In this document: one piece after another, positions 1,369 to 41,088 of the stretch | Position numbering within the stretch: position 1 is the stretch's first letter | Layout of the letters: the number at the start of each line of letters is the position of its first letter | Virus record (IMG/VR): IMGVR_UViG_2541047955_000001 | Coordinates: 1 to 42,920 of that record | DNA: 42,920 bases | Direction: 5' to 3' (one strand) | Origin: a virus | Taxonomy: Duplodnaviria; Heunggongvirae; Uroviricota; Caudoviricetes | Notes under the pieces: generated by a model | What the model was told of the DNA's origin: nothing | Databases searched by the model: none | The model's input: only the letters and a program-made list of their open reading frames with translations | Translations under genes and position numbers: made by a program

Positions 1369-1444
1369 GCCGATATAGCTCAGTTGGTAGAGCAGCGCAT
1401 TCGTAATGCGAAGGTCGTAGGTTCGACTCCTATTATCGGCACCA
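1369..1444 (+). tRNA. thrW: tRNA-Thr (anticodon CGU)
   Basis: 76-nt cloverleaf GCCGATATAGCTCAGTTGGTAGAGCAGCGCATTCGTAATGCG...ATCGGCACCA; anticodon loop TTCGTAA; classic P22 attB tRNA. Confidence 0.93.
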
Positions 1445-1446
1445 TT
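1399..1446. other. attL core (3' part of thrW)
   Basis: attcgtaatgcgaaggtcgtaggttcgactcctattatcggcaccatt repeated at 41423-41470. Confidence 0.85.
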
Positions 1447-1458
1447 TAAATCAATAAG

Positions 1459-2619
1459 TTACCGCACATTTAAGTAAACCACGTTCTCCTCTTGTGCCGT
1501 ATTTGTGCCATTGCGACTTATAATCGCATCGATTTTGCTCGCGTGCTCGGTGAGATGCCCGGCTGAAAGGTGAGCGTATCTTTGAACCATTTCGAGAGTT
1601 TCCCATCCCCCCATCTCTTTAAGTGCAAGAAGAGAGACTCCGGACTGAACCAGCCAGCTTGCCCAGGTGTGTCTCAGGTCATGGAATCGGAAGTTGCTAA
1701 TGCCTGCCCGCTTTAACGCTCCCTTCCATGCTTTGTTGCTATCGGTTCTCATCTTCCTTACCGCAGCTGTTTTTGTTCCGTCGCTTCGGTAGGCAGGTTT
1801 GGTGTGGACAAATACCCATCTCTTATGGAGCCCCTGCTGTTTTCTTAATATCTGGCATGCGGTTTCGTTAAGAGGAACTCCGATCGCATTGCCAGCTTTT
1901 GTTTCATCAGGGTGCATCCATGCCATTTTCTTATCCAGATCGACCTGTGACCACTCAAGGTCTGTAACGTTGGAACGGCGAAGGCCTGTCGTGATTGCAA
2001 ACATGACCACAGGGAAGAAATGAGGAGCAATTTCTGCAAACAGGCGCTTCGATTCCTCCTCTGTAAGCCATCTGATTCGTCCATTCTTAACGCGTGGTGT
2101 TGATATTTTGGGTGCCCTGTCAAGCCATCCCCATTCAACAGCCATATTGAGAATAGCACGAAGTATTGCCAGATGCCGCGTCTTCGTTCCTTTGCTTGCC
2201 AGCTTTGGTTTATACTCCGGCACTGGCTTGCCAAGCCGCAAACACCTGTCCCGGCTCATTTCCCAGTTCAGGCGATGGCGGCGGTTTTCCATCCCGTCTA
2301 CCGCCTCCATTATTTTTTCTGTTGTTATGTCAGAGAGAATGGTTTCTCTGAAGTGCAACATCCAGAACGATATAATGCTCTTGTCATCATCAATGGACTT
2401 CTTATCCGCTTTCTCACGCAGCCACCGTATGCAGGCTTCCTTGAATAGCTTTTTCGGTGATTCCCCGAGATTTTTTACTCTCCACGCTTCTGCTTTCAGA
2501 CGATCGTGAAGTTCTTGCGCTTGCCTTTTGTCCGATGTTTCAAGAGAGCGTCTAACTCTTGATCCATCTGGCGCGACGAAATCGCAGTGCCACGTGCCAC
2601 CGCGTAGTTTGATTGACAT
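1459..2619 (-). CDS. int: tyrosine integrase, P22 Int type
   Basis: 386 aa; C-terminal HDLRHTWASWLVQSGV...YAHL catalytic region; N-terminus resembles P22 Int; adjacent to tRNA 3' end. Confidence 0.95.
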   Translation of the reverse strand: MSIKLRGGTWHCDFVAPDGSRVRRSLETSDKRQAQELHDRLKAEAWRVKNLGESPKKLFKEACIRWLREKADKKSIDDDKSIISFWMLHFRETILSDITTEKIMEAVDGMENRRHRLNWEMSRDRCLRLGKPVPEYKPKLASKGTKTRHLAILRAILNMAVEWGWLDRAPKISTPRVKNGRIRWLTEEESKRLFAEIAPHFFPVVMFAITTGLRRSNVTDLEWSQVDLDKKMAWMHPDETKAGNAIGVPLNETACQILRKQQGLHKRWVFVHTKPAYRSDGTKTAAVRKMRTDSNKAWKGALKRAGISNFRFHDLRHTWASWLVQSGVSLLALKEMGGWETLEMVQRYAHLSAGHLTEHASKIDAIISRNGTNTAQEENVVYLNVR

Positions 2620-5973: not shown

Positions 5974-6357
5974 TCAGAATGGGATGGAATCGTCGTATAC
6001 AGGAGTGTTCTGCTGGTTACTACTTTGCTGCTGCGGGCCATTTCCTGAAGCTGTAAATCCAATCTTTGCATTCAGTAATTCAAGAGTAATTGATTGACCA
6101 TTTTGCCCCTGATAAACATCAACCCTGATGTTTTCTCCGGTAATTTCCACAATGCCACCTTCAACAAGAACGCTACGGTGGTAATCCGCTTGCGCTCCTG
6201 GCTTGGCAAATACAACGGCGCTGTAGTTTGTCCATTCTTTCTTTTTTGTCTGGCGATCGTAATACTGAACGCCAGCACGGATGTTGAATCCGATATTTTC
6301 CCCGGCCTGAAACTCTCTTGCGGGCTTGTTTAGTCTTACAGTAATCGAATGTGCCAT
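5974..6357 (-). CDS. phage single-stranded DNA-binding protein-like
   Basis: 127 aa from internal Met; C-terminal acidic tail ...PVYDDSIPF resembles the SSB DDDIPF tail; start overlaps the erf stop (TAATG). Confidence 0.65.
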   Translation of the reverse strand: MAHSITVRLNKPAREFQAGENIGFNIRAGVQYYDRQTKKKEWTNYSAVVFAKPGAQADYHRSVLVEGGIVEITGENIRVDVYQGQNGQSITLELLNAKIGFTASGNGPQQQSSNQQNTPVYDDSIPF

Positions 6358-14395: not shown

Positions 14396-14421
14396 CCATC
14401 TACATCACTGAGCTAATAACA

Positions 14422-14448
14422 GGGGCTATTTACACAGTAGCCCTTTTT
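14422..14448 (+). terminator. intrinsic terminator (tR2-like) before the nin region
   Basis: Hairpin GGGCTA-tttacacag-TAGCCC followed by TTTTTTATT. Confidence 0.55.
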
Positions 14449-15634: not shown

Positions 15635-15813
15635 GACGACAGCGACGAAGTATCACCGACATAATCTGCGAAAACTGCAAATACCTTCCAACGAAACGCT
15701 CCAGAAATAAACGCAAGCCAATCCCAAAAGAATCTGACGTAAAAACCTTCAACTACACGGCTCACCTGTGGGATATCCGGTGGCTTAGAGAACGTGCGAG
15801 GAAAACAAGGTGA
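15631..15813 (+). CDS. ninE: NinE
   Basis: 60 aa [38 protein letters not shown]... matches lambdoid NinE as recalled. Confidence 0.8.
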
Positions 15814-15980
15814 TTGACCAAAATCGAAGTTACGAACAAGGAAGTGTCGAGCGAGCTTTAACGTGCGCTAACTGCGGTCAGAAGCTGCATGTGCTGGAAG
15901 TTCATGTGTGTGAGCACTGCTGCGCAGAACTGATGAGCGATCCGAATAGCTCAATGTACGAGGAAGAAGACGATGAATGA
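15810..15980 (+). CDS. ninF: NinF (GTG start)
   Basis: 56 aa, not in track; [38 protein letters not shown]...; Cys4 motif. Confidence 0.6.
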
Positions 15981-16695
15981 GTTAATAAATGGCAATGCCA
16001 TCAAAATGACAAGCATTGAAATCGCTGAGTTGGTGGGAAGTCGTCATGACAAGGTGAAACAATCTATTGAACGACTGGCGGCTCGAGGTGTGATCCGAAA
16101 TCCCCCAATGGTGGTTTTCGAAAAAATCAATAACTTAGGATTACTTCGTGGCGTAGAGGCTTACGTTTTTGAGGGAGAACAAGGTAAGCGAGACAGTATT
16201 GTCGTTGTAGCCCAGTTGTCGCCGGAATTCACCGCTCGTCTTGTTGACCGTTGGCGAGAGCTTGAAGACGCTGCGGTTAATATCCCCAAAACTCTACCAG
16301 AAGCGTTGCGCCTTGCTGCTGATCTTGCTGAGCAGAAAATGCAACTGGAAAACCAGCTCGCAATTGCAGCACCTAAAGTTGAGTTTGCCGATCGCGTTGG
16401 CGAGGCCAGCGGAATTTTGATTGGAAACTTTGCAAAGGTTGTTGGAATTGGTCCAAACAAACTGTTTGCGTGGATGCGCGATCACAAAATCCTTATTGCT
16501 TCAGGTTCCCGGCGCAATGTGCCAATGCAGGAATATATGGATCGCGGCTATTTCACAGTGAAAGAAACAGCGGTCAATACAAATCACGGAATACAGATAT
16601 CGTTCACCACAAAAATCACCGGGCGTGGTCAACAGTGGCTGACCAGAAAGCTTCTCGATAACGGAATGCTGAAAGTAACAGGGGAGGCTGCTTAA
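15973..16695 (+). CDS. Rha-family regulatory protein with KilAC-type C-terminal domain
   Basis: 240 aa; N-terminal MTSIEIAELVGSRHDKVKQSIERL (Rha-like) and C-terminal antirepressor-like DNA-binding region. Confidence 0.7.
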   Translation: MNELINGNAIKMTSIEIAELVGSRHDKVKQSIERLAARGVIRNPPMVVFEKINNLGLLRGVEAYVFEGEQGKRDSIVVVAQLSPEFTARLVDRWRELEDAAVNIPKTLPEALRLAADLAEQKMQLENQLAIAAPKVEFADRVGEASGILIGNFAKVVGIGPNKLFAWMRDHKILIASGSRRNVPMQEYMDRGYFTVKETAVNTNHGIQISFTTKITGRGQQWLTRKLLDNGMLKVTGEAA

Positions 16696-16985
16696 TGGCT
16701 AACCTACGCAAAGAAGCGCGCGGCAGAGAATGTCAGGTACGTATTTACGGCGTATGCAATGGTAATCCTGAAACTACAGTTCTGGCACATTACCGGATGG
16801 CTGGAATTTGCGGAACGGGAATGAAACCTGACGACCTGATTGGCGCATGGGCTTGTAGCGCGTGTCACGATGAAATCGACCGACGCACCCATAATCTCGA
16901 CAACAAAGACGCCAGACTTTACCACCTCGAAGGCGTGATCAGGACGCAGGCGATACTGCTGAAGGAGGGGAAGATTAAGTCATGA
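16695..16985 (+). CDS. NinX-like protein
   Basis: 96 aa; conserved Cys/His residues; position between Rha and rusA. Confidence 0.6.
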   Translation: MANLRKEARGRECQVRIYGVCNGNPETTVLAHYRMAGICGTGMKPDDLIGAWACSACHDEIDRRTHNLDNKDARLYHLEGVIRTQAILLKEGKIKS

Positions 16986-18105: not shown

Positions 18106-18180
18106 GGGTCAGTCGTATAAAGGTCATTACGGAAGGCTGTTAACCTTCTTATCGTGGTTCGAGTCCACGCTGTCCCGCCA
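18106..18180 (+). tRNA. tRNA-like, Asn (GUU) anticodon, imperfect stems
   Basis: 75 nt ending CCA; anticodon stem GAAGG/CCTTC, loop CTGTTAA; T-loop TTCGAGT; one T-T mismatch in acceptor and D stems. Confidence 0.45.
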
Positions 18181-18185
18181 AATAT

Positions 18186-18261
18186 GCTGGTTTAGCTCCA
18201 ATGGTAGAGCGGTCGCCTTGTAAGCGAATGGGTAGCGGTTCAAGTCCGTTAACCAGCACCA
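18186..18261 (+). tRNA. tRNA-Thr (UGU)
   Basis: 76 nt; 7-bp acceptor stem GCTGGTT/AACCAGC; D stem GCTC/GAGC; anticodon loop CTTGTAA; T-loop TTCAAGT; 3' CCA. Confidence 0.6.
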
Positions 18262-35519: not shown

Positions 35520-35696
35520 ATGATGAGCGATGTTCTTTACAGTGGTCGTAAAAGTCAGAGTTTCCAGCTTCGTTTGCCAGCGCGAATGAAGGAGGAGATC
35601 AGACGCGTAGCTGAAATGGATGGAATTTCTATCAACTCTGCGATTGTGCAGCGACTGGCTAAAAGCCTGAGAGAGGAAAGAGCTAATGCCCAGTAA
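35520..35696 (+). CDS. Arc-like ribbon-helix-helix repressor
   Basis: Track ORF 35505-35696; start at ATGATG after GGAGA; FQLRLPARMKEEIRRVAEMDGISINSAIVQRL RHH core. Confidence 0.6.
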   Translation: MMSDVLYSGRKSQSFQLRLPARMKEEIRRVAEMDGISINSAIVQRLAKSLREERANAQ

Positions 35697-35769
35697 AAAT
35701 AGTGAAGCCCGGAAGTGCGCGAACACAAACCGGGCCTCTATGTCAGTAACCGTACTCAAGGAAACTAAC

Positions 35770-36408
35770 ATGAATATTGTAGCAAAATCAGATTATAACT
35801 TCCAAGGATTCACTTTTAACCCTGTAACAGAGGGCGGGTCTATCTGGTTTACCTCCACCGAACTAGCTAAGGCTCTCGGCTATAAAAAAACTGATGCCAT
35901 CAGCCAAATTTATGCCCGTAATGCTGACGAATTTTCCGACTCAATGTCATTGACCCTCAATATGAAGGTCAACGGAATAAACAATAGCTTACGTAACAAA
36001 TCGGTCAGAGTTTACTCACTCCGAGGCGCTCACTTGGTGGCGATGTTTGCTTCTACGCCCAAGGCCAAAGAGTTCCGCCGCTGGGTGCTGGATATTTTGG
36101 ATCGGCAGGCAGAATGCTCACCGATTGCAAAACAGTTTACTGACGAAGAACTGGTTAATCTCTGCTACTTACAATTGTGGATGGAGAAGAGTCAACAAAT
36201 GTGCAAACACATCTACCCTGGAATGAAGCAAATTGGTTCTGAGCTTTCAGGAAAGATTTACGATATTGCATATGAGACTCGCTACATGTCAGAAGAAACC
36301 AAGAAATCGCTTCTTCGTGAAATGAAGAATCTTGATCCCAACAATTTTGTCGTAAAGAACGCTCAGCCAATGCTGGCAAAACTTCGCGGCGAGGAATGGA
36401 TTCATTGA
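35770..36408 (+). CDS. Bro-N domain antirepressor-like protein
   Basis: Track ORF 35686-36408; start at MNIVAKS with AAGGA RBS; Bro-N signature FNPVTEGGSIWFTSTELAKALGY...RVYSLRGAHLVAMFASTPKAKEFRRWVLD. Confidence 0.7.
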   Translation: MNIVAKSDYNFQGFTFNPVTEGGSIWFTSTELAKALGYKKTDAISQIYARNADEFSDSMSLTLNMKVNGINNSLRNKSVRVYSLRGAHLVAMFASTPKAKEFRRWVLDILDRQAECSPIAKQFTDEELVNLCYLQLWMEKSQQMCKHIYPGMKQIGSELSGKIYDIAYETRYMSEETKKSLLREMKNLDPNNFVVKNAQPMLAKLRGEEWIH

Positions 36409-36495
36409 TTGGTGCACAGGACGGCGCAAAAGAAAACCGCCAGTGTGCTGCTGGCGGCCTATGTCACACCCTTACTACCACATAAGGAATGCCTA

Positions 36496-37224
36496 ATGAC
36501 TTTTAAGAATGTAGCAAACATCGGATCCGTTGTCACGGATAAAACCATTGATAGCCAGTACCTGTTAGAGATGGTCAATCATGCTCGTAGACAGTGCGGG
36601 GAAAAAGAAGTTCGCAATAACGACTTTATTGCACGCATTAAGGATGAACTTGAAGGTGAGCACTACGAAATTTTCGTAGTTCAAAAATCAAACAAGACAA
36701 CTTCTGAAAAAGTTGTTATGTCAATTAAGCAAGCCCTTCGAGTGGCTGCTCGTGAATCTAAAGCTGTTCGCCGCTCACTTGTAGACCAACTTGAAAGTAT
36801 GCAAGAAGCGCACATTAAAAGCGGTAAATCGTCGAGTGGACTTGTTGAGTATCGCCAGGCGCGAACACTGAAAATGACGGTTGAAGCTGTTACCAATCTG
36901 TTCGATCTGATGCCAAATCTTGCGCCTGAGGCAAAGCAGACAGCGGCAGCAAGTATAATCAACCCGCTCGTTGGTTTTAATGCAATACCTCTTCCGGCAA
37001 TAGAAGAGCATTACTACTCAGCAGGGGAGGTTGCAGAGCAGCTTGGAGTAACGGCCAACAAGATTGGTCGCATTGCTAACGCAAACAACCTCAAAACTGA
37101 GCAGTACGGGAAGTTCTTCCTGGATAAATCTGCGCATTCCAGCAAACAGGTGGAAGCATTCCGCTACAATGCGGAAGGTGTTAAAGCACTACAACACCTG
37201 ATTCATGGGAGTAATGTTGCATAA
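36496..37224 (+). CDS. antirepressor-like protein with KilAC-type C-terminal region
   Basis: Track ORF 36409-37224; start at MTFKNV with AAGGA RBS; C-terminal YSAGEVAEQLGVTANKIGRIANANNLKTEQYGKFF. Confidence 0.5.
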   Translation: MTFKNVANIGSVVTDKTIDSQYLLEMVNHARRQCGEKEVRNNDFIARIKDELEGEHYEIFVVQKSNKTTSEKVVMSIKQALRVAARESKAVRRSLVDQLESMQEAHIKSGKSSSGLVEYRQARTLKMTVEAVTNLFDLMPNLAPEAKQTAAASIINPLVGFNAIPLPAIEEHYYSAGEVAEQLGVTANKIGRIANANNLKTEQYGKFFLDKSAHSSKQVEAFRYNAEGVKALQHLIHGSNVA

Positions 37225-37452: not shown

Positions 37453-37480
37453 AACCCGCTTAATCGCGGGTTTTTTCTTT
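37453..37480 (+). terminator. intrinsic terminator ending the arc–ant-like operon
   Basis: Hairpin CCCGC-ttaatc-GCGGG followed by TTTTTTCTTTT. Confidence 0.5.
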
Positions 37481-37717
37481 TCTAAGGATATCAGCCGCAA
37501 CTTCTTTTACTCGTTCCGAGATTAATGAGGCCAGCCTCTCTTCTTCATCACGATACCCGCTTACAGGTGATGGTTTGGAGAGTGATTCTTCCATCGTAGC
37601 CACAATTTCGGAATTGATAGACCTGTTATTCATTTTTGCACGCTGTTTAATCTTGGCGTGCAACTCGTGCGTAAGCCTCAAGTGGAACTGCGCCTCATCG
37701 TATTTGCTGTACATCAT
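37460..37717 (-). CDS. Mnt-like ribbon-helix-helix repressor
   Basis: Track ORF 37460-37798; start at ATGATG after GGTGAGG; NRSINSEIVATMEESLSKPSPVSGYRDEEERLA resembles P22 Mnt as recalled. Confidence 0.65.
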   Translation of the reverse strand: MMYSKYDEAQFHLRLTHELHAKIKQRAKMNNRSINSEIVATMEESLSKPSPVSGYRDEEERLASLISERVKEVAADILRKEKTRD

Positions 37718-37859
37718 CAATGCCTCACCAAATGGGTGGAATGGCATCGTAAAACCTACTGTACAAATCAACAATCGTACCATTTCGGTATGTAACAAAT
37801 ACCAACCGTAGCCATGCTGCGGCGATTCCTTGTATCTGGAGCAAATTAAATGACAGACA

Positions 37860-38360
37860 TTACCTACTCAACAGATGGTCAGCAACCATGTTTGCTGCCT
37901 TATAAGCTATAGCCGCTTCATCAATGGTGTTGAATCTCCCAAGGGTTATGTTTTTACCTGAGACATTTATCTGAGCTTGCCATTGATTTCTGGCTTGACA
38001 GAAAGTTACCCCCTTGATTCCAGCATTGCTATTTCGAGGTCCGACATTTAATGCATTTACGACTCTGCTGACATCCCTAAGGTTTGAGATTGCGTTATTT
38101 CTTCTGTTTCTATCAATGTGGTCAATCTCTTGTTTGGGCCATTCGCCATATACATACAGCCAGGCAAGTCTATGTGCAAAATATCTTACGCCATCAATAT
38201 TAATTGCGTTATATCCATAAGAAATTGTGCCAGCAACTTTCCCAACAGCACCTCTGGCGCTTAATTTCTTTTTCCAAGTGAAAATTCCTGTTTCTTTATT
38301 GTAATCGAGAACCTCCATAAGGCGCTCCCGAGTTACTACCTCGTGACGTCTCTTACTCAT
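37860..38360 (-). CDS. HNH endonuclease with AP2-type DNA-binding domain
   Basis: Track ORF 37860-38402; start at MSKRRH after GGAGA; HNH motif [27 protein letters not shown]; C-terminal AP2-like [27 protein letters not shown]. Confidence 0.75.
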
Positions 38361-38373
38361 TATTTTCTCCGGA

Positions 38374-41088
38374 ATGTTTATTATGCCAGAACAATTATAC
38401 AACGTTGTTGTTTCACAACCAAGTCAGTTATTTACTTTAGCTCGCTCGTTTAAAGCAAATGCCAATGGCAAAATTTATATCGGTAAAATTGACACTGACC
38501 CTGTAAATCCTGAAAACCAGATTCAGGTTTATGTGGAGAACGAAGACGGTTCTCACGTTCCTGTTTCGCAACCAATAATCATTAACGCTGCCGGATATCC
38601 GGTATATAACGGACAGATTGCCAAATTCGTAACCGTGCAAGGCCATTCTATGGCTGTTTACGATGCTTATGGCACTCAGCAGTTTTATTTTCCAAATGTA
38701 TTAAAATACGATCCAGATCAGTTTGGCCCAGACTTCAAAGAGCAGTTATCTCAATCAGGAGCATACATTAATGATGATTCAAAAGGTGATGCATTAATTG
38801 GGGTAAGGCAGCCATTTACCGGGGCTGCAACTATAACTCAGCATGAAAACAATGCTCTTTTCTTAAATGTAAAACAATTTGGAGCAATTGGGGATGGGAA
38901 ATATCATCCATTATCTGAGTGGTTTTCTTCAATTTCTGAAGCAAAATCCTTATATCCTTTTGTTGACTCATTATCTCAGTCAATAGACTGGGCCGCGTGG
39001 CAAGCTGCCCTTAACACAGGAAAGGTTATTTATGGTACTGATAATGCGTATGTAATAACGGATACGTTAACACCTGTTTCTGGTGGTGGGATAATTTGTC
39101 TTGGTGTGGGCAAATGGGTCTCAGGATATACTGCAACATTTGCTCCTGATATTACCACAGGGACCACATTCCTGATGTACGGGGTAGGAAATAAAAAATA
39201 TACTGTAGATTGTGTTTCTAATATGGATGTTAGTGGTGGTGTGGTTTCTAACCCATCTTCCGAAGACCCGTATACAACAACGGCACCTGCGTCATCATAT
39301 GATTTATTGGATTTTACTAACGGTGATGCTAATGGGACTACAAGAGCCACGCTTAAACCATTCTCTGCCGCAATATTGATGCCTGAGACAGGATGTGTTC
39401 GCCTTGAGAACTTTCGTGTTGTTCCATATTTCAATGGGCTGGATGGTTATAAAGACATTGCAAATACCGGTCTTGGCGATGAGTGGGATGTAGGTATTTG
39501 GTCACGTGCGTCTTTTGGCAATGAATACCGCAATTTGCAGGTGGTTGGATACTGGCGCAAGACGGCACTTTTAAAAACGAACATTCCTGTATCTGGCACG
39601 CTGGCCGCTCAGGGCGAGGATGAAAACTATTATCACTGTAGATTCCAAGGATTCAAGGGTATTTCGATCCGCGCCCATGATGTATTCCGAATTACAGCGG
39701 TAACGTCCAGCACTATCGAAATACCATGGTCAGCAAGCCACACCTTCGAAACGTCCGGGGTTTTAAGATCTGGAGGCAGGAATTTCACTTATTCAGGATT
39801 ATCCGTATCCGGTGATAAGTTAGTATTTACTGGAGTGTCTAACGCTTCTGAGGCAACAGTAGGTTCTACTATACGGCGAAATGACATAGATAACTTTGGT
39901 ATGGCGGGAACGCAATTTTTCGATTGCTACATTACCAGCCTGTATCACCACACACATCTGCTTGCCACATCGCAATACCTGTCTCAACCATTCAGCCGAC
40001 CATCAGAGTGTATGGAGGTTTCAGGGGAACCAGTTCGCGGTGTACAGGTACATGCAGGAACCATTCAGGGATGGGATGATGTTCTTATTCATCTACATGA
40101 CTGTGGAAATATGAACTTTTACAGTACATATTTCGAAAGCCAGCAAGCATATGTAACTATAAATGGTGGTAATGCTATTGGTTATGGAGCACGTATGATA
40201 GCTTCCCGGCAATCAACAAGCTCATTACCATATGCAGCAGGGAATACTCGAGTGCTTAGAATGGTCGGGTGCTCTGAAGGCAATGGCGTTGACTGGGGTC
40301 CTGTATTTAACAACTATACAGGAGGAAGATATAATTCCGGAGACGGTGTATTTAACCCCCGCGATGCATTTATAGACCATAAATCTCTTCCTGAGCAGTC
40401 AGGAGGTGAGTCAAGACTCGTATCACAAAAAGGAAATGCCAGAGTAGTATGTGGTGTTGGTAAAACTGTACTGCTTGGACCAACGTCAGGAGATTGTAAT
40501 TTACAGAGTAATACTGGAAGTTTAAATATTAGAAGTGGGATAAGAGTAAGAATCGGTCACGCTGATGGAACAGACTGGTGGTTGGCAGATGCTAATAAAA
40601 TAGCTCCTGTTGATGATAATGTTAAAGCCATTGGACAGCCATCAAACAGATGCTCTGTTATTTATGCAGGAACCGGGTCAATCAATACATCAGATGAAAC
40701 TCTTAAAACAAGATATGATATTCTTAATGCAGAGCGTGATGCCGCTATTGAAATAAAGTCAGTCATCTATAAATTTAAATTTAATGACTCAATTAATAAC
40801 AAAGGAATTGAGTCGTCCAGGTATCATTTTGGCGTTGGCGCTCAAACCGTAGGGGATATTCTTAGAAAGCATGGTTTAAACCCTGAGCAATATGCTTTTT
40901 GGTGTTACGATGAATGGCCTGACGTATGGGATGAAGAGGTGATAACTGAAGAGAGCACAGATCCTGATACAGGTGAGAAAATTTATTCTCAATATAAAAC
41001 AGGAGATATGATTCTTGTAAAAAAAGCAGGAGGACGCTACGGAATTCGTTATGACGAATTGGCTATGTTTATATTAATGGCAATGTAG
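38374..41088 (+). CDS. tailspike: P22/Sf6-type head-binding domain, beta-helix depolymerase, C-terminal S74 chaperone domain
   Basis: 904 aa; conserved N-terminal head-binding region; FGAIGDGK beta-helix start motif; C-terminal SDETLK...[10 protein letters not shown]74 signature; true start may be ATG at 38383. Confidence 0.9.

What the first reader, a model, noticed from the sequence alone, without database searches (positions are those of the whole stretch)
15973..16695. Rha/KilAC-type regulator inserted between ninF and ninX
A 240-aa protein with an N-terminal Rha-like domain and a C-terminal antirepressor-type DNA-binding region interrupts the otherwise canonical nin gene order. Rha-family proteins interfere with lytic growth in some hosts, and this is a second antirepressor-like module in addition to the immI-like region.
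Basis: partly seen in the sequence, partly recalled or inferred. Interest (0 to 1): 0.35.

Follow-up and report, generated by a model that had tools for sequence, protein, structure and literature searches.

The report
Known phage regulator gene roi
This gene is roi, a long-known DNA-binding regulator of HK022/HK97-type lambdoid phages, sitting in its usual place in the phage's early operon, so the finding is correct in substance but ordinary.

Summary
The ORF at 15973-16695 (+), 240 aa, is real. It is an ortholog of roi: 89% and 88% amino-acid identity to HK022 and HK97 Roi, and 100% identical to HK022 Roi from about residue 101 to the end. The C-terminal KilAC/ANT domain is strong (113 bits against a cut-off of 25.3). 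The N-terminal Rha match spans the whole profile but falls just under Pfam's cut-off for this allele (26.6 against 29.9). All 73 diverse full-length relatives hit both domains. The gene is not an insertion. The order ninF-roi-ybcO/DUF1364-rusA-ninH-Q is identical in HK022, HK97 and CUS-3, and 53 of 82 related loci have ninF-roi-ybcO. The downstream gene is not ninX. About 19% of complete E. coli genomes carry a roi homolog, and two viral contigs encode the identical protein with one nucleotide difference. By homology, Roi is a delayed-early DNA-binding protein that blocks lytic growth in IHF-deficient hosts. Its physiological role is still unclear. Two minor extras emerged. A hypervariable patch (aa 22-65) covers the predicted recognition helix and wing. 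An intragenic IHF consensus (16125-16137) is conserved at synonymous sites and shared, as a 21-nt identical island, with P22 rha. Already known; low interest.

The parts
15973..16695 (+). roi coding sequence (240 aa), ortholog of HK022/HK97 Roi
   Evidence: ORF listed. 89% and 88% aa identity to HK022 and HK97 Roi. Annotated roi / DNA-binding protein Roi in 219 phage records. PHROG 63, E = 3.6e-95.
15960..15964 (+). Shine-Dalgarno-like GAGGA, 8 nt before the ATG, inside the end of ninF
   Evidence: Read directly from the sequence.
16003..16272 (+). N-terminal Rha-like winged helix-turn-helix domain (aa 11-100)
   Evidence: Pfam Phage_pRha over aa 12-98, 26.6 bits, below the gathering score of 29.9. 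73 of 73 relatives hit the family. BLASTP to P22 Rha E = 1e-6. AF2 model topology is strand-helix-helix-hairpin-helix-helix with pLDDT about 86-93.
16036..16167 (+). Hypervariable allele patch (aa 22-65), covering the predicted recognition helix (aa 25-38) and the beta-hairpin wing (aa 46-67)
   Evidence: Four main allele classes. Nucleotide identity between classes is 0.56-0.72 in the patch against 0.93-1.00 elsewhere in the gene. Secondary structure. The window allele is the HK629 / VT2-Sakai type, 95-96% nt identity.
16125..16137 (+). Intragenic match to the IHF consensus WATCAANNNNTTR (AATCAATAACTTA), over codons K51-L55
   Evidence: by itself not above chance: 2 found, 2.5 expected. Present in all 61 distinct roi DNA alleles. 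The three codons with a conserved amino acid under the motif are 3 of only 5 (out of 17) codons identical in all four allele classes, p about 0.015. The identical 13-mer lies within a 21-nt identical island in P22 rha at the homologous codons.
16294..16368 (+). Long linker helix (aa 108-132), followed by a low-confidence hinge (aa 133-145)
   Evidence: AF2 model, pLDDT 65-77 for the helix and below 50 for the hinge.
16348..16656 (+). C-terminal KilAC/ANT domain (aa 126-228), nearly invariant among close roi alleles
   Evidence: PF03374, 113.3 bits against a cut-off of 25.3. Entropy at or near zero at almost all positions from aa 130 to 240 across 42 distinct proteins. The AF2 model shows a helix-helix pair plus a beta-hairpin with pLDDT 84-91.
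15810..15980 (+). ninF, upstream neighbour, overlapping the roi start by 8 nt
   Evidence: PF05810, 47.4 bits against 27.5; PHROG 672.
16695..16985 (+). ybcO/DUF1364-family gene (gp66 of HK022/HK97, hkbD of CUS-3), downstream neighbour; not ninX
   Evidence: PF07102, 150 bits. Annotations sampled. hkbD label. No similarity to P22 NinX.

Best explanation
The gene is roi, the HK022/HK97-type 'Roi' regulator, carried here by a P22-like prophage in its standard nin-region slot. Shown here: it is translationally coupled to ninF and to the ybcO-like gene, and it has no promoter or terminator of its own. It should therefore be made as part of the pR delayed-early transcript that runs through the nin genes to Q. 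The protein has two winged-helix-like domains joined by a long helix. The first is an N-terminal Rha-type domain whose predicted recognition helix and wing are the only hypervariable part of the family. The second is a C-terminal KilAC/ANT domain that is nearly invariant among close alleles. Inferred by orthology with HK022 Roi: it binds DNA, and its activity blocks phage lytic growth when the host lacks integration host factor (IHF). My recollection of the Clerget & Boccard 1996 abstract, which I could not read here, is that Roi binds a site inside its own gene next to an IHF site, and that IHF stabilises this binding. Consistent with that, a conserved IHF consensus lies inside roi at 16125-16137. 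Its normal benefit to the phage is not established.
Confidence: 0.85

Rival explanations
1. Roi is a true antirepressor, as many database labels say ('anti-repressor Ant', 'phage antirepressor KilAC domain-containing protein'). On this reading it binds and inactivates a CI/C2-type repressor, either its own or that of a co-resident prophage.
For: PHROG 63 and PHROG 130 are labelled 'anti-repressor Ant', and NCBI source names say the same. The KilAC domain is named after the P1 Ant/KilA proteins (Pfam description).
Against: The gene sits in the delayed-early operon with no promoter of its own, so it would be made only after the phage's own repressor has already been lost. The window already has a dedicated, Arc/Mnt-controlled antirepressor of a different architecture at immI. 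Roi shows no detectable similarity to that protein (E = 0.28). The one characterised ortholog is annotated as a DNA-binding protein. Both domains model as wHTH-like folds.
Confidence: 0.08
2. Roi is an AriS-like dual-function regulator. The variable N-terminal domain acts on phage DNA, while the conserved KilAC domain acts on the host by damping the SOS response or RecA. This would tune induction among co-resident prophages. It is compatible with the best explanation for the N-terminal half.
For: In Listeria AriS, the isolated ANT/KilAC domain inhibits the SOS response. AriS-like proteins swap their N-terminal domain among AntA/B, Bro-N and pRha (PMC9043618). Roi has the pRha + KilAC version of this architecture. 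Roi alleles vary only in the N-terminal domain and keep the KilAC domain nearly invariant, as expected for a conserved host target.
Against: AriS is from a Firmicute phage and its sequence was not compared with Roi here. No data exist for E. coli. Near-invariance of the C-terminus among close alleles may simply reflect recent common ancestry, since the DNA there is also 98-99% identical. As I recall the HK022 paper, Roi's C-terminal half resembles P1 Ant1 and KilA and is discussed as DNA-binding.
Confidence: 0.12
3. The gene is a recently acquired foreign insertion (a moron) that interrupts the nin region of this particular phage.
For: Lambda and P22 go directly from ninF to ninG (for P22).
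Against: The same slot is occupied in HK022, HK97, CUS-3 and the Stx phages and in most of the 82 related loci. There is no promoter or terminator of its own. Start and stop codons overlap those of the neighbours. GC content is 0.44-0.52, like the flanks.
Confidence: 0.02
4. Roi is a host-killing or exclusion function, comparable to P1 KilA or an abortive-infection or anti-phage defence protein acting against other phages.
For: It shares the KilAC domain with P1 KilA (Pfam family description). Rha and Roi proteins stop phage growth in certain hosts.
Against: No match to any PADLOC defence model. The position in the delayed-early lytic operon means it is not expressed from the repressed prophage. 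roi tolerates IS629 disruption in natural Stx2a prophages with no reported phenotype.
Confidence: 0.03

Closest known systems
Roi of coliphage HK022 (Clerget & Boccard 1996, J Bacteriol 178:4077) and Roi/gp65 of HK97
   Same: 89% and 88% aa identity over the full length. 100% identical to HK022 Roi from about residue 101 to the end. Same length within one residue. Same position between ninF and the gp66/ybcO-like gene. Same intragenic IHF consensus position.
   Different: Residues 22-65 (predicted recognition helix and wing) belong to a different allele class, with 56% nucleotide identity in the patch. The host phage here is P22-like (podovirus-type virion genes, immI) rather than an HK97-type siphovirus.
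Roi of HK629, VT2-Sakai and other Stx phages
   Same: Same N-terminal allele class (95-96% nt identity in the patch); 93% aa identity overall.
   Different: They differ at the domain boundary and in the linker helix (aa 100-132). In Stx phages the downstream gene is ninG rather than ybcO-rusA.
roi of the P22-like coliphages CUS-3 and HK620
   Same: Same phage type. In CUS-3 the order ninF-roi-hkbD-rus-ninH-Q is identical. In HK620, roi lies next to ninF and HkbD.
   Different: About 92-94% nucleotide identity only.
Rha of phi80 and P22 (orf201)
   Same: Homologous N-terminal wHTH domain (BLASTP E = 1e-6 for P22 and 5e-4 for phi80). Same reported phenotype of blocking lytic growth in IHF-deficient hosts. 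P22 rha shares a 21-nt identical island containing the IHF consensus.
   Different: Rha proteins are single-domain-plus-tail proteins of 184-201 aa without KilAC. They are encoded in the late operon after the lysis genes, not in the nin region. phi80 rha has no intragenic IHF consensus.
AriS of Listeria phage phi10403S and AriS-like proteins (PMC9043618)
   Same: [quoted passage not shown]
   Different: AriS itself has an AntA/AntB N-terminus. It comes from a Firmicute phage. Its SOS-inhibiting activity has not been tested for Roi, and its sequence was not compared here.
P22-type Ant antirepressor (immI)
   Same: Both carry 'antirepressor' labels in databases, and both are present in this window.
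   Different: The window's Ant (35686-36408) is Bro-N + P22_AR_C under Arc/Mnt-type control. It has no detectable similarity to Roi.

Membership tests
Roi (HK022/HK97 roi orthologs) | Full-length, high sequence identity to HK022 Roi | tested here: met
   215 of 241 residues identical (89%), E = 4e-160, end to end. 88% to HK97 Roi.
Roi (HK022/HK97 roi orthologs) | Position in the nin region directly after ninF and before the Holliday-junction-resolvase module and Q | tested here: met
   Same order in HK022, HK97 and CUS-3. 53 of 82 loci show ninF-roi-ybcO.
Roi (HK022/HK97 roi orthologs) | IHF binding site within the gene (as I recall from the 1996 abstract) | tested here: met
   A consensus match at 16125-16137 lies at the same gene position as in HK022 and HK97, is present in 61 of 61 alleles, and is conserved at synonymous sites. 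Actual binding by IHF was not tested.
Roi (HK022/HK97 roi orthologs) | Protein binds DNA within its own gene; lytic growth is blocked in himA/hip hosts | not testable with these tools
   Requires EMSA or footprinting and plating assays. The primary paper is not held.
Pfam PF03374 ANT (KilAC domain) | Score at or above the gathering threshold (25.3 bits) | tested here: met
   113.3 bits, aa 126-228, profile positions 1-106 of 108.
Pfam PF09669 Phage_pRha | Score at or above the gathering threshold (29.9 bits) | tested here: not met
   26.6 bits for this allele, although the match covers profile positions 1-90 of 91.
Pfam PF09669 Phage_pRha | Homology of the N-terminal domain to founding Rha proteins and to family members | tested here: met
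   9 of 9 roi alleles hit the family (best 3.8e-9), as do 73 of 73 diverse full-length relatives (best 3.6e-21). BLASTP to P22 Rha E = 1e-6 and to phi80 Rha E = 5e-4. hhalign to P22 Rha E = 4e-4 but probability only 35%.
Rha proper (phi80 rha / P22 orf201) | Protein of about 185-200 aa without KilAC, encoded in the late operon downstream of the lysis genes | tested here: not met
   Roi is 240 aa with KilAC and lies in the nin region. P22 rha and phi80 rha lie after Rz/Rz1.
P22-type Ant antirepressor | Bro-N + P22_AR_C domains, in immI under Arc/Mnt control | tested here: not met
   Roi has neither domain and is not similar to the window's Ant (E = 0.28). The real immI Ant is at 35686-36408.
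AriS-like dual-function regulators | C-terminal ANT/KilAC domain with an N-terminal AntA/B, Bro-N or pRha domain | tested here: met
   Architecture shown; family definition from PMC9043618.
AriS-like dual-function regulators | The KilAC domain inhibits the host SOS response | not testable with these tools
   Needs SOS reporter assays in E. coli.
Known anti-phage defence systems (PADLOC) | Match to any defence-system protein model | tested here: not met
   No hits for Roi, NinF or the YbcO-like protein.

The most novel reading that the evidence does not exclude
Roi is a two-part device. Its roughly 130-bp hypervariable patch encodes the recognition helix and wing of the N-terminal winged helix. 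The same patch also contains the IHF-flanked DNA site that the protein binds. DNA-binding specificity and target would then be inherited together as a self-contained cassette. Meanwhile the nearly invariant KilAC domain would act on a conserved host target, damping SOS/RecA as in Listeria AriS. That would make Roi a widespread but unrecognised modulator of prophage induction in E. coli, including Stx phages.
Probability: 0.12. Interest if true: 0.45.

Novelty: already known. Interest (0 to 1): 0.1.

Why it matters
As a discovery it matters little. roi was described in 1996, is annotated in hundreds of phage genomes, and sits here in its usual place. Three practical points follow. First, automated labels such as 'anti-repressor Ant' for this family are probably misleading. 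Second, despite being present in about 19% of complete E. coli genomes and in many Shiga-toxin phages, Roi's normal function remains essentially unstudied, and neither of its domains has a close solved structure. Third, three features give concrete handles for experiments on how IHF and Roi interact: the allele-specific recognition-helix/wing patch, the conserved intragenic IHF consensus, and the 21-nt island shared with P22 rha.

Tried and rejected
1. NCBIfam scan of Roi gave no hits.
2. Sequence search of the PDB gave only chance-level hits, E above 0.6.
4. The primary Roi paper (PMC178163) is not held. Four further literature searches found no description of the Roi binding site.
5. A search for operator-like repeats around the IHF site found only short, weak repeats: 8-nt direct repeats, 12-13-nt imperfect inverted repeats, and in HK022 a 13-nt direct repeat at 77% identity. 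None is convincing.
6. I tested whether an intragenic IHF site is a general feature of Rha-domain genes, and rejected the idea. Ten other Rha-family genes and phi80 rha lack it. Only roi and P22 rha share it.
8. The 'recent insertion' reading is rejected on synteny, operon coupling and composition.
9. The defence-system reading is rejected because there are no PADLOC hits.
10. No Rfam family other than tRNAs occurs in the window.

Full report
OBSERVATION. A GAGGA motif lies 8 nt upstream of the start. The start overlaps the end of the preceding gene by 8 nt, and the stop overlaps the start of the next gene (TAATG).

Pfam gives a strong C-terminal KilAC/ANT domain: PF03374, 113.3 bits against a cut-off of 25.3, over aa 126-228. 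The N-terminal Phage_pRha match spans profile positions 1-90 of 91 but scores 26.6 bits, just under the gathering score of 29.9. PHROGs places the whole protein in phrog_63 with E = 3.6e-95. NCBIfam has no model for it.

The upstream gene is NinF. The downstream gene is a YbcO/DUF1364-family protein, not NinX. It shows no similarity to P22 NinX, and in P22 ninX lies between ninE and ninF. None of 40 sampled annotations of its homologs uses that name.

IDENTITY. The gene is roi. Megablast finds it in 219 phage records, where it is repeatedly annotated 'roi', 'DNA-binding protein Roi' or 'Roi protein' (HK629, HK620, VT2-Sakai, Stx2 phage 86, CUS-3 and others). The protein is 89% identical to HK022 Roi and 88% to HK97 Roi over the full length. 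It is 100% identical to HK022 Roi from about residue 101 to the end.

Homologs occur in 1040 of 5426 complete E. coli genomes. Three IMG/VR contigs encode a 100% identical protein, and two of them differ by one nucleotide across the gene. In the 50%-identity representative library, 193 representatives match at E of 1e-30 or better and 2517 at 1e-10 or better. Many match over the full length at 40-56% identity. Relatives in Aeromonas, Vibrio, Photobacterium and Edwardsiella have the same architecture.

CONTEXT. The window is a P22-like prophage. A tRNA-Thr lies at 1369-1444 next to an integrase gene. The immI region has Arc/Mnt-like repressors and a Bro-N + P22_AR_C antirepressor. The tailspike has a P22-type head-binding domain.

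The nin region reads ninB, dam, ninE, ninF, roi, ybcO-like, rusA, ninH, Q. This is the same order as in HK022 and HK97 and in the P22-like coliphage CUS-3. Among 82 related loci, 53 show ninF-roi-ybcO. In Stx phages roi also follows ninF but is followed by ninG.

roi has no promoter-like or convincing terminator-like site of its own, and its GC content matches its flanks. It is therefore a regular member of one common version of the nin operon. It is not an insertion into a canonical order.

However, the immI Ant has a different architecture and no detectable similarity to Roi.

RHA MEMBERSHIP. The window allele alone falls 3.3 bits short of Pfam's threshold. All nine roi allele classes match the family, with a best E of 3.8e-9. 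All 73 members of a diverse full-length alignment match both PF09669 (best 3.6e-21) and PF03374. Pairwise BLASTP to the founding proteins gives E = 1e-6 for P22 Rha and 5e-4 for phi80 Rha. hhalign gives E = 4e-4 but a probability of only 35%.

I conclude that the N-terminal domain is homologous to Rha domains. Roi is not a member of 'Rha proper', however. Those proteins lack KilAC and are encoded in the late operon after the lysis genes.

STRUCTURE. An AlphaFold2 model built on the 73-sequence alignment has mean pLDDT 78.6. Its pTM is low (0.39), as expected for two flexibly linked domains. The N-terminal domain (aa 11-100) is strand, helix, helix, beta-hairpin, helix, helix, with pLDDT about 86-93. 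A long helix spans aa 108-132 and a disordered hinge spans aa 133-145. The C-terminal domain (aa 148-229) has a helix-helix pair followed by a beta-hairpin and a final helix, with pLDDT 84-91.

ALLELE STRUCTURE. Among 61 distinct DNA alleles (42 distinct proteins), nearly all variation lies in aa 22-65. A second, minor variable stretch covers aa 100-132. Residues 130-240 are almost invariant.

Four main allele classes exist. Nucleotide identity between classes is 0.56-0.72 in the patch against 0.93-1.00 elsewhere. On the model, the patch is the second helix of the HTH (aa 25-38) plus the wing hairpin (aa 46-67). I infer that alleles differ in what they recognise. The window carries the HK629 / VT2-Sakai-type patch joined to an HK022-type C-terminal half.

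IHF SITE. The consensus WATCAANNNNTTR occurs twice in the window against 2.5 expected, so the count alone means nothing. One of the two matches lies inside roi at 16125-16137.

The site is retained in all 61 alleles. It forms an island of identity inside the diverged patch. Of 17 patch codons whose amino acid is conserved in all four classes, only 5 are identical at the nucleotide level, and 3 of those are the three such codons under the motif (hypergeometric p about 0.015, post hoc).

P22 rha carries the identical 13-mer within a 21-nt identical island (CGAAAAAATCAATAACTTAGG) at the homologous codons (EKINNLG). The proteins are only 31% identical over 51 residues there. It is also the only consensus match in that 8.2-kb P22 locus.

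The feature is not general. Ten other Rha-family genes and phi80 rha lack it. It fits my recollection that the 1996 paper placed an IHF site inside roi next to the Roi site, but I could not read that paper.

MECHANISM. Best supported: Roi is a delayed-early DNA-binding protein of the pR/nin operon whose activity becomes inhibitory to lytic growth when IHF is missing. This is by orthology to HK022 Roi, whose title is quoted. The related Rha phenotype is summarised and annotated for phi80.

Its benefit to the phage is unknown. Natural Stx2a prophages tolerate IS629 insertions in roi. In the P22-like prophage Gally, roi is listed as one of five regulators, and its expression was unaffected in macrophages.

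RIVALS. A true antirepressor, as database labels say, is unlikely given the operon position and the presence of a separate immI Ant.

An AriS-like dual function is an untested but attractive addition. In it, the KilAC domain would damp the host SOS response, as shown for Listeria AriS, whose relatives include pRha + KilAC proteins. It fits the pattern of a variable N-terminus and an invariant C-terminus.

A foreign insertion is refuted by synteny. A defence or killing function has no support.

VERDICT. The thing is a known, named and widespread gene in its canonical place. Novelty: already known. Interest: low.

Noticed in passing
window 16117-16137; L085 (P22) 6328-6348: roi and P22 rha (orf201) share a 21-nt perfectly identical island, CGAAAAAATCAATAACTTAGG. 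It contains an exact IHF consensus at homologous codons (EKINNLG), although the proteins are only 31% identical over 51 residues there. Both genes are reported to block lytic growth in IHF-deficient hosts. phi80 rha and ten other Rha-family genes lack the island.
   Followed up: yes
window 16036-16167: A hypervariable patch in roi (aa 22-65) has four main allele classes at 56-72% nucleotide identity, embedded in flanks that are 93-100% identical. It maps to the predicted recognition helix and wing, and looks like a swappable specificity cassette.
   Followed up: partly
window 16178-16190 and 16233-16245: An imperfect 13-nt inverted repeat (AACAAGGTAAGCG / CGCTCGTCTTGTT, 77% complementary, 42 nt apart) lies about 40 nt downstream of the IHF consensus. 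It is conserved in HK022 roi. It could be a protein-binding site or chance.
   Followed up: no
window 36409-37224 (+): A 271-aa ORF lies directly after the immI ant gene. It has no Pfam domain but a strong PHROG match (phrog_1726 'anti-repressor', E = 2e-100). This is a possible second immI-encoded regulator.
   Followed up: partly
window 37460-38402 (-): An extra Arc-like ribbon-helix-helix gene (37460-37798) and an HNH_3 + AP2-domain gene (37860-38402) lie between immI and the tailspike gene. The latter may be a homing-endonuclease-like insertion.
   Followed up: no
window 38374-41088 (+): The 904-aa tailspike has a P22-type head-binding domain at the N-terminus. Near the C-terminus it has a weak, below-threshold endosialidase-domain match and a Peptidase_S74 chaperone domain. 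This may indicate a capsule-specific receptor-binding module; one search did not establish it.
   Followed up: no
window 18106-18261 (+): Two phage-borne tRNA genes, tRNA-Asn(gtt) and tRNA-Thr(tgt), lie between Q and the holin gene, in the leader of the late operon.
   Followed up: no
window 1369-2619: tRNA-Thr(cgt) at 1369-1444 lies immediately next to an ORF of integrase size at 1459-2619 (minus strand). This is probably the prophage attachment site and left boundary. The ORF at 1-1254 would then be a host gene.
   Followed up: no
window 14421-14445 (+): A terminator-like hairpin with a T-run lies between the DnaB-like P gene and ninB. This is the position of lambda tR2 and of the P22 'L2' terminator, and is consistent with N-dependent expression of the nin genes including roi.
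   Followed up: no
[not shown]
   Followed up: partly
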